Assembly: GCA_964016885.1 (NCBI GenBank)
Contig: OZ024752.1
Span: 23,684,001 to 23,748,000, forward strand
Source: Eledone cirrhosa
Lineage: Eukaryota
Direction: 5' to 3'
DNA: 64,000 nt
This document shows positions 9,555-10,025 of this stretch, one piece after another. Within the stretch, counting starts at the first letter, position 1. The number at the start of each line of letters is the position of its first letter. The position numbers and the translations under genes were made by a program. The notes under the pieces were generated by a model, which was not told the origin of the DNA, ran no database searches, and was given only the letters and a program-made list of their open reading frames with translations.

Positions 9555-9752
9555 AACGAAGGAAATGTGGTAAGGAACCAGGTGGACAATAACGCACTAA
9601 AGTACTCAATACTTAGGGTAGTAGAGTGGGTAATAGGAACAAGTAAGACCCCGACGGCTGAGCTCAAGCCGTTTCGACGGCTAATTCTGTACTGAGTACA
9701 GAATTACCCGTCGAAACGGCTTGAGCTCAGCCGTCGGGGTCTTACTTGTTCC
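9555..9752. mobile_element. Fold-back pseudo-LTR fragment (family F) with the 3' half of an HHR
   Basis: Palindrome 9634-9752 centred near 9693 contains GAAA CGGCT-TGAGCTC-AGCCG TC GGGGT. An 80-bp extension is on one arm only, and both flanks are (TA)n. Confidence 0.8.
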
Positions 9753-9890
9753 TATATATATATATATATATATATATATATATATATATATATAATGCAT
9801 CTATATATATATATAATATATATATATATATATATATATATATATATATATATATATATATATATATATATATATATATATATATATATA

Positions 9891-10025
9891 GGAACCAGTA
9901 AGACCCCGACGGCTGAGCTCAGCCGTCGGGGTCTTACAGGTTCCTATTACCCACTCTACTACCCCAAGTATTGAGTACTTTGGTGCGTTATGGTCCACCT
10001 GGTTCCTTACCACATTTCCTTCGTT
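9891..10025. mobile_element. Fold-back pseudo-LTR fragment (family F)
   Basis: Palindrome centred on CTGAGCTCAG (about 9917) plus the same one-sided extension, in (TA)n. Confidence 0.8.

What the first reader, a model, noticed from the sequence alone, without database searches (positions are those of the whole stretch)
9555..10025. Family F copies each fold back at a different point, suggesting the palindrome is made anew at each insertion
Seen: the same terminal sequence forms a palindrome centred near 9693, near 9917 (inside CTGAGCTCAG) and near 23637. Each has an 80-bp extension on one arm only, and each lacks the CUGANGA half of the ribozyme. A shared ancestral palindrome would have one centre. 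Inference: both ends of an insertion are made from the element's 3' end, by twin priming or cDNA snap-back at TA targets. This would yield MITE-looking fold-backs from a retroelement. The 48232 copy links the terminus to a Penelope RT.
Basis: partly seen in the sequence, partly recalled or inferred. Interest (0 to 1): 0.8.

Follow-up and report, generated by a model that had tools for sequence, protein, structure and literature searches.

The report
Fold-back ends of Penelope retroelements
These short DNA hairpins sitting in TA repeats are real and are most likely heavily truncated insertions of a Penelope-type jumping gene, laid down in the already described 'inverted copy plus one-sided tail' pattern, with only a hint of something new in where some of them stop.

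Summary
The three palindromes are real (arms 61, 30 and 61 bp, at most 1 mismatch each; 0 of 200 shuffles fold as well). All lack CUGANGA and carry a ~79-nt tail on one arm. Only two centres really differ: 9693 and 23637 lie 4 nt apart in element coordinates, and the 9917 copy equals the 23637 type minus 71 nt between two TGAGCTCA repeats, so three centres do not prove de novo formation. Other evidence does favour it. Reads from two other samples of the same species label show non-palindromic parents, both 3' ends family-wide, and 107 distinct joints. Variants are mirrored within each copy. Four other families in this window show the same anatomy, one attached to a Hydra-like ORF. This is the published PLE architecture (inverted 5'-truncated copy, junction palindrome, one-sided tail, (TA)n target). 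The 48232 copy is parent-like sequence lying beside an RT on the opposite strand, so its RT link is adjacency only. Two independently primed cDNAs fit better than snap-back, but this is unproven. Possibly new: the ~80-nt tail, and 3 of 24 listed junctions starting exactly at the hammerhead cleavage site.

The parts
9555..9754 (-). Copy A: fold-back insertion in (TA)n. Tailed arm 9555-9693 (tail about 9555-9633), 1-nt loop at 9694, tail-less arm 9695-9754.
9890..10025 (+). Copy B: tail-less arm to 9917, centre inside the palindromic stem-III loop (GAG|CTC), tailed arm 9918-10025 (tail about 9947-10025).
23574..23780 (+). Copy C: tail-less arm to 23632, 9-nt loop 23633-23641 containing AATT, tailed arm 23642-23780 (tail about 23702-23780).
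23645..23688 (+). 3' half of a predicted type I hammerhead: stem II 3' strand, GAAA (23660-63), stem III with palindromic loop TGAGCTCA, GUC, stem I 3' strand GGGGT. Predicted cut between 23682 and 23683.
   Evidence: read from the sequence against the hammerhead core described in PMC4209133; not listed among the top 150 of 184 Rfam matches
48231..48355 (-). Copy D: parent-like (non-palindromic) pLTR piece. It ends at a third 3' end 25 nt into the tail, at a TA inside a Helitron helicase frame. It has lost GAAAC, carries the loop-II sequence seen in reads, and has a possible degenerate ACCC-CUGANGA half near 48344-48354.
   Evidence: fold not beyond chance (z -0.34)
48634..49628 (+). Broken, 3'-truncated Hydra-like PLE ORF (RW and DKT motifs) next to copy D. 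Not shown to be family F's own ORF.
19983..23564 (+). Family G, full-size example of the same anatomy: tailed inverted arm 19983-20924, direct arm with Hydra-like ORF pieces 20917-22357, complete hammerhead motif near 23460-23520, tail-less end at (TA)n directly before copy C.
18755..19180 (+). Family G mini fold-back: arms to about 19098, ~82-nt tail on one arm.
10141..10531 (+). Family H mini fold-back: ~36-nt tail. The tail-less arm runs ~35 nt further upstream than the tailed arm, and the join lies in a stem-II microhomology. Non-palindromic parent at 31200-31458.
50551..50919 (+). Family J inverted insertion: tail-less arm stops at the stem-III palindrome CAATTG; tail of at least 80 nt.

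Best explanation
The family F palindromes are likely the extremely 5'-truncated insertions of a hammerhead-bearing, (TA)n-targeting Penelope-like retroelement (probably Hydra clade), each likely built at insertion from two cDNAs primed at two fixed sites about 80 nt apart in the terminal repeat. SHOWN: two fixed 3' ends (tail-less and tailed) throughout the family; non-palindromic parents; many different junctions; variants mirrored within a copy; the same anatomy in other families here, one with an ORF. INFERRED: the GIY-YIG endonuclease cuts both strands of a TA run; each cut end primes reverse transcription at a TA-containing site of the element RNA, one at the tail end and one 79 nt upstream; both cDNAs stop early; being of the same polarity they can anneal only through self-complementary motifs (TGAGCTCA in B, AATT in C, the stem-II repeat in family H) or are end-joined; repair leaves a head-to-head palindrome with a tail on one arm. 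Later slip deletions at the tip likely add further centres. The copies are likely dead on arrival, as they lack half of the ribozyme and any ORF.
For: laid on copy C: 23,965 of 12,467,656 reads (X9), 24,418 of 12,785,554 (X10), 17,485 of 16,517,967 contigs (X1). Depth is about 4,980 at the tail-less TA end and about 10,350 at the tail end in X9. Loose ends before 23641 (710 and 650 reads) and before 23652 (1,286 and 1,295 reads) are non-palindromic and match copy D's minus strand. 107 distinct joints were reported (15 shown). Junctions 23632>23696 (23 and 36 reads) and 23629>23708 (55 and 167 reads) recur in both raw-read runs; there the tail-less arm reaches 54-63 nt further upstream than the tailed arm starts, so it is not a copy of the tailed arm. 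Family H shows the same asymmetry. Both arms of A, B and C agree at two family-wide polymorphic sites (chance 0.04-0.05 per site for three copies). Families G, H and J each show two fixed 3' ends. G's direct arm carries Hydra-like ORF pieces. PMC11167929: a purified PLE protein cuts and extends both strands and starts RT at two internal sites that define the tail. PMC8557442: inverted 5'-truncated copy and one-sided tail are typical; Hydra elements insert in (TA)n and have hammerheads.
Against: No ORF was shown to be continuous with family F (minus-strand ORF-end test: 53 of 300 shuffles scored as high). A and C share nearly one centre, and 20-21 contigs of X1 cross that centre with a 1-nt deletion (table 4), so a recurrent or amplified centre exists. 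B can be derived from C by one deletion, and asymmetric joints can also be post-insertion deletions. Of the 15 joints shown, 11 are marked 'between: not known', and many end at 23690-23700 where subfamilies differ by indels, so their positions are uncertain. Raw reads mostly stop at AATT sites (23625, 23649) and rarely cross an A/C-type centre. Arm homogenisation by gene conversion would also mirror variants.
Confidence: 0.7

Rival explanations
1. Same PLE origin, but made by self-priming or snap-back: one nucleic acid folds back on a short palindrome or ribozyme hairpin and is copied, and the tail is then clipped from one arm during resolution (Arkhipova et al. 2013 proposed self-priming on an antisense template).
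For: Centres of B and C fall on short palindromes (TGAGCTCA, AATT). Variants are mirrored within copies. Several listed joints are near-symmetric. PMC3846280 Discussion.
Against: It needs an extra site-specific clip to stop the short arm at the same base in all copies. Junctions such as 23629>23708 join arms that share no sequence. Both directions of asymmetry occur (H versus J). In vitro, both strands are primed at two start sites (PMC11167929).
Confidence: 0.25
2. One or a few palindromic non-autonomous masters arose once from a PLE and were amplified as units; the different centres are later tip deletions of an unstable palindrome.
For: A and C differ by an 8-nt tip; B equals C minus 71 nt between direct repeats; about 20 contigs cross a C-like centre and one 90-nt contig of depth 18.8 has an A-like centre.
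Against: Depth over the C-type centre is only about 1-3% of arm depth in X1 (20,000-60,000 at 23635 versus 2-3 million). Most reads at the junction run into non-palindromic parent sequence. Copy-specific variants are mirrored. The same anatomy arose in families G, H, J and K.
Confidence: 0.15
3. A TA-targeting MITE (Tc1/mariner-type DNA transposon derivative) with long terminal inverted repeats.
For: Inverted repeats, TA flanks, small size, high copy number.
Against: One end lies 79 nt outside the inverted repeat; the internal end is variable; a hammerhead half is present; non-palindromic parents dominate; sister families carry PLE ORFs.
Confidence: 0.03
4. Fold-back chimeras from sequencing or assembly.
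For: Raw reads rarely cross the A/C centre; palindromes beside (TA)n are hard to assemble.
Against: The inverted repeat stops at the same element base in all three copies and does not extend into flanks; arms of A and B carry mismatches; identical inversion joints recur in two separate raw-read runs; an A-like centre is crossed by a contig of X1 (X1 may be the assembly's own sample).
Confidence: 0.03

Closest known systems
Complex insertions of EN+ Penelope-like elements: inverted 5'-truncated pLTR copy, palindrome at the junction, one-sided tail (PMC3846280, PMC8557442)
   Same: Head-to-head inverted copies, palindromic junction, tail on one arm, strong 5' truncation, hammerhead in the terminal repeat.
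   Different: The whole insertion is only 135-210 nt and stops inside the ribozyme. The tail is ~79 nt (also ~80 nt in G and J) against the 30-40 bp these papers state.
Hydra clade of PLEs (PMC8557442)
   Same: (TA)n target, hammerheads, ~700-aa ORF class with RWK-like, DKT and CxCX5C-like motifs in this window's ORFs; one Hydra family is noted with a 5'-truncated inverted copy (supplementary file S1 row).
   Different: Family F's own ORF is not identified; no tree was built.
PAc Poseidon element in vitro (PMC11167929)
   Same: Two fixed RT start sites bracketing the tail; AT-rich target; both strands cut and extended.
   Different: That study found no need for hammerhead cleavage and no RNA reads ending at the cut site, whereas 3 of 24 listed junctions here start at the predicted cut site.
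L1 twin priming (recalled, not read here)
   Same: Two primers from the two target strands give an inversion joined by microhomology.
   Different: In L1 the inverted segments do not overlap; here both arms copy the same terminal sequence, which needs two templates or two repeat copies.
Non-LTR retrozymes (bioRxiv 10.64898/2026.07.22.740005; part 1 of 5 read)
   Same: PLE-derived, non-coding, type I hammerhead.
   Different: Retrozymes are tandem units with complete ribozymes; these are inverted and lack CUGANGA.

Membership tests
EN+ PLE complex insertion | Inverted 5'-truncated copy joined head-to-head to a direct copy | tested here: met
EN+ PLE complex insertion | Tail on one end only (two fixed 3' ends) | tested here: met
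   79 nt rather than 30-40; both ends family-wide in reads; same in G, H, J
EN+ PLE complex insertion | Variable 5' truncation and non-palindromic parents | tested here: met
   107 joints; loose ends of 650-1,295 reads
EN+ PLE complex insertion | Complete type I hammerhead in the pLTR | tested here: inconclusive
   3' half clear in A and C (B lacks GAAA too); 5' half only degenerate in D, fold z -0.34; complete motifs in G, J, L
EN+ PLE complex insertion | pLTR continuous with an RT plus GIY-YIG ORF | tested here: inconclusive
   Adjacent only for F; continuous for family G
Hydra clade | (TA)n insertion preference | tested here: met
   All arms of A, B, C end in TA runs; D ends at TA
Hydra clade | RWK, DKT, CxCX5C motifs and C-terminal GIY-YIG without CCHH in the family's own ORF | tested here: inconclusive
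   RW and DKT seen in the neighbouring ORF, CNCR linker and YIG in the 54026-56108 ORF; not shown to belong to F
Hydra clade | Phylogenetic placement with reference Hydra proteins | not tested
   No reference set fetched; named homologues are coral proteins at 36-37% identity
MITE / TIR DNA transposon | Inverted repeats reach both termini | tested here: not met
   79-nt one-sided extension
MITE / TIR DNA transposon | Uniform internal structure among copies | tested here: not met
MITE / TIR DNA transposon | Fixed target-site duplication | not testable with these tools
   Hidden by (TA)n; no empty alleles available
Non-LTR retrozyme | Tandem units each with a complete hammerhead | tested here: not met

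The most novel reading that the evidence does not exclude
These minimal insertions are a genome-wide footprint of the unresolved Penelope insertion mechanism: both ends are primed independently, and a subset of cDNAs run off exactly at the hammerhead cut site (GUC|GGGGU), which would be in vivo evidence that ribozyme-cleaved RNA is used as template, contrary to the only in vitro study.
Probability: 0.3. Interest if true: 0.6.

Novelty: new member of a known kind. Interest (0 to 1): 0.3.

Why it matters
The architecture itself is known, so the finding mainly warns that such hairpins will be mis-annotated as MITEs or miRNA-like elements. It matters more as material: how PLEs make inverted repeats and what their hammerheads do are stated as open in PMC8557442 and PMC11167929, and a family with thousands of very short junction-containing copies lets both be tested by counting junction positions in one genome.

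Tried and rejected
No whole genome is held for this window, so no genome-wide census was possible. A 21-nt family motif found 0 matches in metagenome contigs, and the RT-EN protein found no confirmed locus there (0 of 190 pattern matches). Rfam gave no hammerhead match on family F among the 150 of 184 matches listed; one sub-threshold HH9 match lies at 18308-18378. Pfam gave no family for the three PLE ORF pieces or two homologues, only the two Helitron domains. My idea that copy D's minus strand carries the end of a Hydra ORF was rejected (score 19.9; 53 of 300 shuffles as high). My first idea that the A/C palindrome is the ribozyme's own long stem II was rejected, because reads show non-palindromic loop sequence there. 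The fold of D as a full hammerhead is not beyond chance (64 of 200 shuffles). The Helitron helicase was not found to resume after D (motif scan), so the limits of the D plus RT block are undefined. Run X6 (organism B) laid 0 contigs, which is no proof of absence. No RNA holder was listed. Earlier findings by place and by sequence gave nothing.

Full report
Setting. The window is AT-rich DNA with many (TA)n runs (2,840 bases in TA runs), a decayed Helitron at about 45.2-48.2 kb (PF14214, PF05970) and several broken ORFs that match a profile built from 26 homologues of a ~700-aa RT-endonuclease protein. No whole genome is held.

The observation. A BLAST of the family against the window finds four copies, A (9555-9754), B (9890-10025), C (23574-23780) and D (48231-48289). 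A, B and C are palindromes with arms of 61, 30 and 61 bp and 1, 1 and 0 mismatches; 0 of 200 shuffles fold as well in each case. Each has a ~79-nt extension on one arm and ends in TA on both sides. The sense strand of A and C reads as the 3' half of a type I hammerhead: GAAA, a stem III with the palindromic loop TGAGCTCA, GUC, then GGGGT. This reading is mine, from the core described in PMC4209133; Rfam did not list it. CUGANGA is absent.

The centres are less diverse than claimed. A and C differ only by an 8-nt tip, so their centres are 4 nt apart. B is exactly C minus the 71 nt between two TGAGCTCA repeats. Three centres therefore do not by themselves show formation at each insertion. What speaks for it inside the window is that variants are mirrored on both arms of a copy. 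Using allele counts of run X9, the chance that three copies agree at one such site is 0.04-0.05. Gene conversion between arms would give the same picture.

Reads (one call, 4 of the 11 runs listed). On copy C, 23,965 of 12,467,656 reads (X9), 24,418 of 12,785,554 reads (X10), 17,485 of 16,517,967 contigs (X1) and 0 of 36,118,309 contigs (X6, another organism) were laid. X9 and X10 are RAD-seq runs of two other samples with the same species label, from one study; X1 may be the assembly's own sample. Both 3' ends are family-wide: depth about 4,980 at the tail-less end and 10,350 at the tail end in X9. Large classes of reads leave the palindrome into non-palindromic sequence before 23641 (710 and 650 reads) and before 23652 (1,286 and 1,295 reads), and that sequence matches copy D's minus strand. 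So non-palindromic parents exist, and D is one of them with a short loss around GAAAC, not a fold-back. 107 joints were reported (15 shown) and 90 joints with letters between (12 shown). Most reads stop at the AATT sites 23625 and 23649, probably the library's cut site (inference), so raw reads rarely cross an A/C centre. One X1 contig (90 nt, depth 18.8) has an A-like centre, and 20-21 contigs cross a C-like centre with a 1-nt deletion. Depth at 23635 is about 1-3% of arm depth.

Junction analysis. I used 14 of the 15 shown joints (dropping the one 'opposite strands' row) and all 12 shown rows with letters between, 24 distinct in all. One is exactly symmetric, several are within 8 nt, and many are strongly asymmetric with the tail-less arm longer. 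Two of these recur in both raw runs: 23632>23696 (23 and 36 reads) and 23629>23708 (55 and 167 reads, 2-3 start places). In the latter the arms share no sequence. Caveats: 11 of the 15 rows are marked 'between: not known', many end where subfamilies differ by indels, and deletions after insertion can give the same joints. Three of the 24 start at 23683, the first base after the predicted cut; all three are X1 contigs only, and one is a blunt symmetric join with no microhomology. The binomial chance is 0.04, 0.007 or 0.002 for 30, 60 or 100 possible positions, but the rows shown are a selected small part, so this is a lead only.

Other families in the window repeat the anatomy. Family G has two fixed 3' ends about 80 nt apart, a mini fold-back at 18755-19180, and a full-size case at 19983-23564 whose direct arm holds ORF pieces at 20917-22357 and a complete hammerhead motif. 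Family H (10141-10531) has a ~36-nt tail, a non-palindromic parent at 31200-31458, and a tail-less arm that runs ~35 nt further upstream and joins in the stem-II repeat. Family J (50551-50919) has the opposite asymmetry, its short arm stopping at CAATTG. Family K (10545-10770) is similar but no parent was found.

The RT link. A plus-strand ORF starts near 48634 and matches the profile from 48817 to 49628, with RW and DKT motifs. D lies on the other strand upstream of it, as an inverted copy would, but no shared sequence was found, and a test for an ORF end on D's strand failed (53 of 300 shuffles). A degenerate ACCC-CUGANGA-like stretch sits at 48344-48354 in the expected place, but the fold is not beyond chance. 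Membership of F in the PLEs thus rests on anatomy, target, ribozyme half and the sister families, not on its own ORF.

Mechanism. I favour two cDNAs, primed from the two cut strands of a TA run at two fixed sites in the terminal repeat, truncated early and joined through self-complementary motifs or by end joining. It explains the constant end of the short arm without an extra step, both asymmetries, and centres on short palindromes. It matches the in vitro result that a PLE protein cuts and extends both strands and starts at two sites that bracket the tail (PMC11167929, parts 1-2 of 4 read). All steps after the two fixed ends are inferred. Snap-back with later clipping, and amplified palindromic masters with tip deletions, remain possible.

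What is known. PMC3846280 (passages and Discussion read) describes inverted pLTRs, the one-sided tail and 'palindromes at the inverted junction', read as self-priming. PMC8557442 (passages, section 11, one keyword search of supplements) calls the inverted 5'-truncated copy and 30-40 bp tail typical and defines the (TA)n-targeting Hydra clade. PMC4209133 (part 1 of 4 and passages) notes hammerheads 100-700 bp apart on opposite strands as probable truncated PLEs. The retrozyme preprint was read in part 1 of 5. Searches for Penelope with 'twin priming', 'template switch', 'self-priming' or 'ribozyme cleavage' and 'MITE-like' listed, by title and abstract start, no paper on twin priming in PLEs, on 80-nt tails or on junctions at the cut site; the library lacks most subscription papers, and figure supplements of PMC8557442 and PMC11167929 were not examined for tail lengths. 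L1 twin priming is recalled. Two earlier reports of this scan on other genomes reached a similar 'ordinary PLE' verdict (unchecked).

Verdict. Real, and a new family member of a known architecture. Interest 0.3. The cut-site junctions and the evidence for independent priming are the parts worth following in a full genome.

Noticed in passing
window 9555-11000: Five short insertions of four families (F twice, H, K, L) are packed into 1.5 kb, separated by TA runs: a TA insertion hot spot. A and B face each other as a larger inverted pair.
   Followed up: partly
window 17308-17350, 10838-10880, 31825-31865: Family L with complete CUGAUGA..GAAA hammerhead motifs; further fragments at 35815-35933 and 57617-57677.
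   Followed up: partly
window 18308-18378: Sub-threshold Rfam HH9 hammerhead match (33.3 bits, gathering 52) lying between two 236-nt direct repeats (17963-18192, 18422-18657).
   Followed up: no
window 19340-19442 and 19700-19865: Another inverted pair with CUGAUGA..GAAA motifs on opposite strands, beside family G copies.
   Followed up: no
window 37895-41029: Near full-length broken Hydra-like element (family J) with a hammerhead motif at 40865-40975 whose stem II closes a ~65-nt loop.
   Followed up: partly
window 54026-56108 (-) and 56633-56944 (+): Near full-length broken Hydra-like ORF with an inverted ORF fragment upstream (54254-54572 versus 56944-56626); its upstream repeat family recurs at 6061, 25115, 53009 and 57941.
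   Followed up: partly
window 42534-48230: Decayed Helitron with a long tandem-repeat-coded N-terminal region, cut at the helicase motif HKAQGQT by copy D.
   Followed up: partly
window 48231: Copy D uses a third 3' end, 25 nt into the tail; all three ends of family F fall on a TA of the element.
   Followed up: partly
window 4371-5997: Tandem repeat of about 543-nt units at 99% identity.
   Followed up: no
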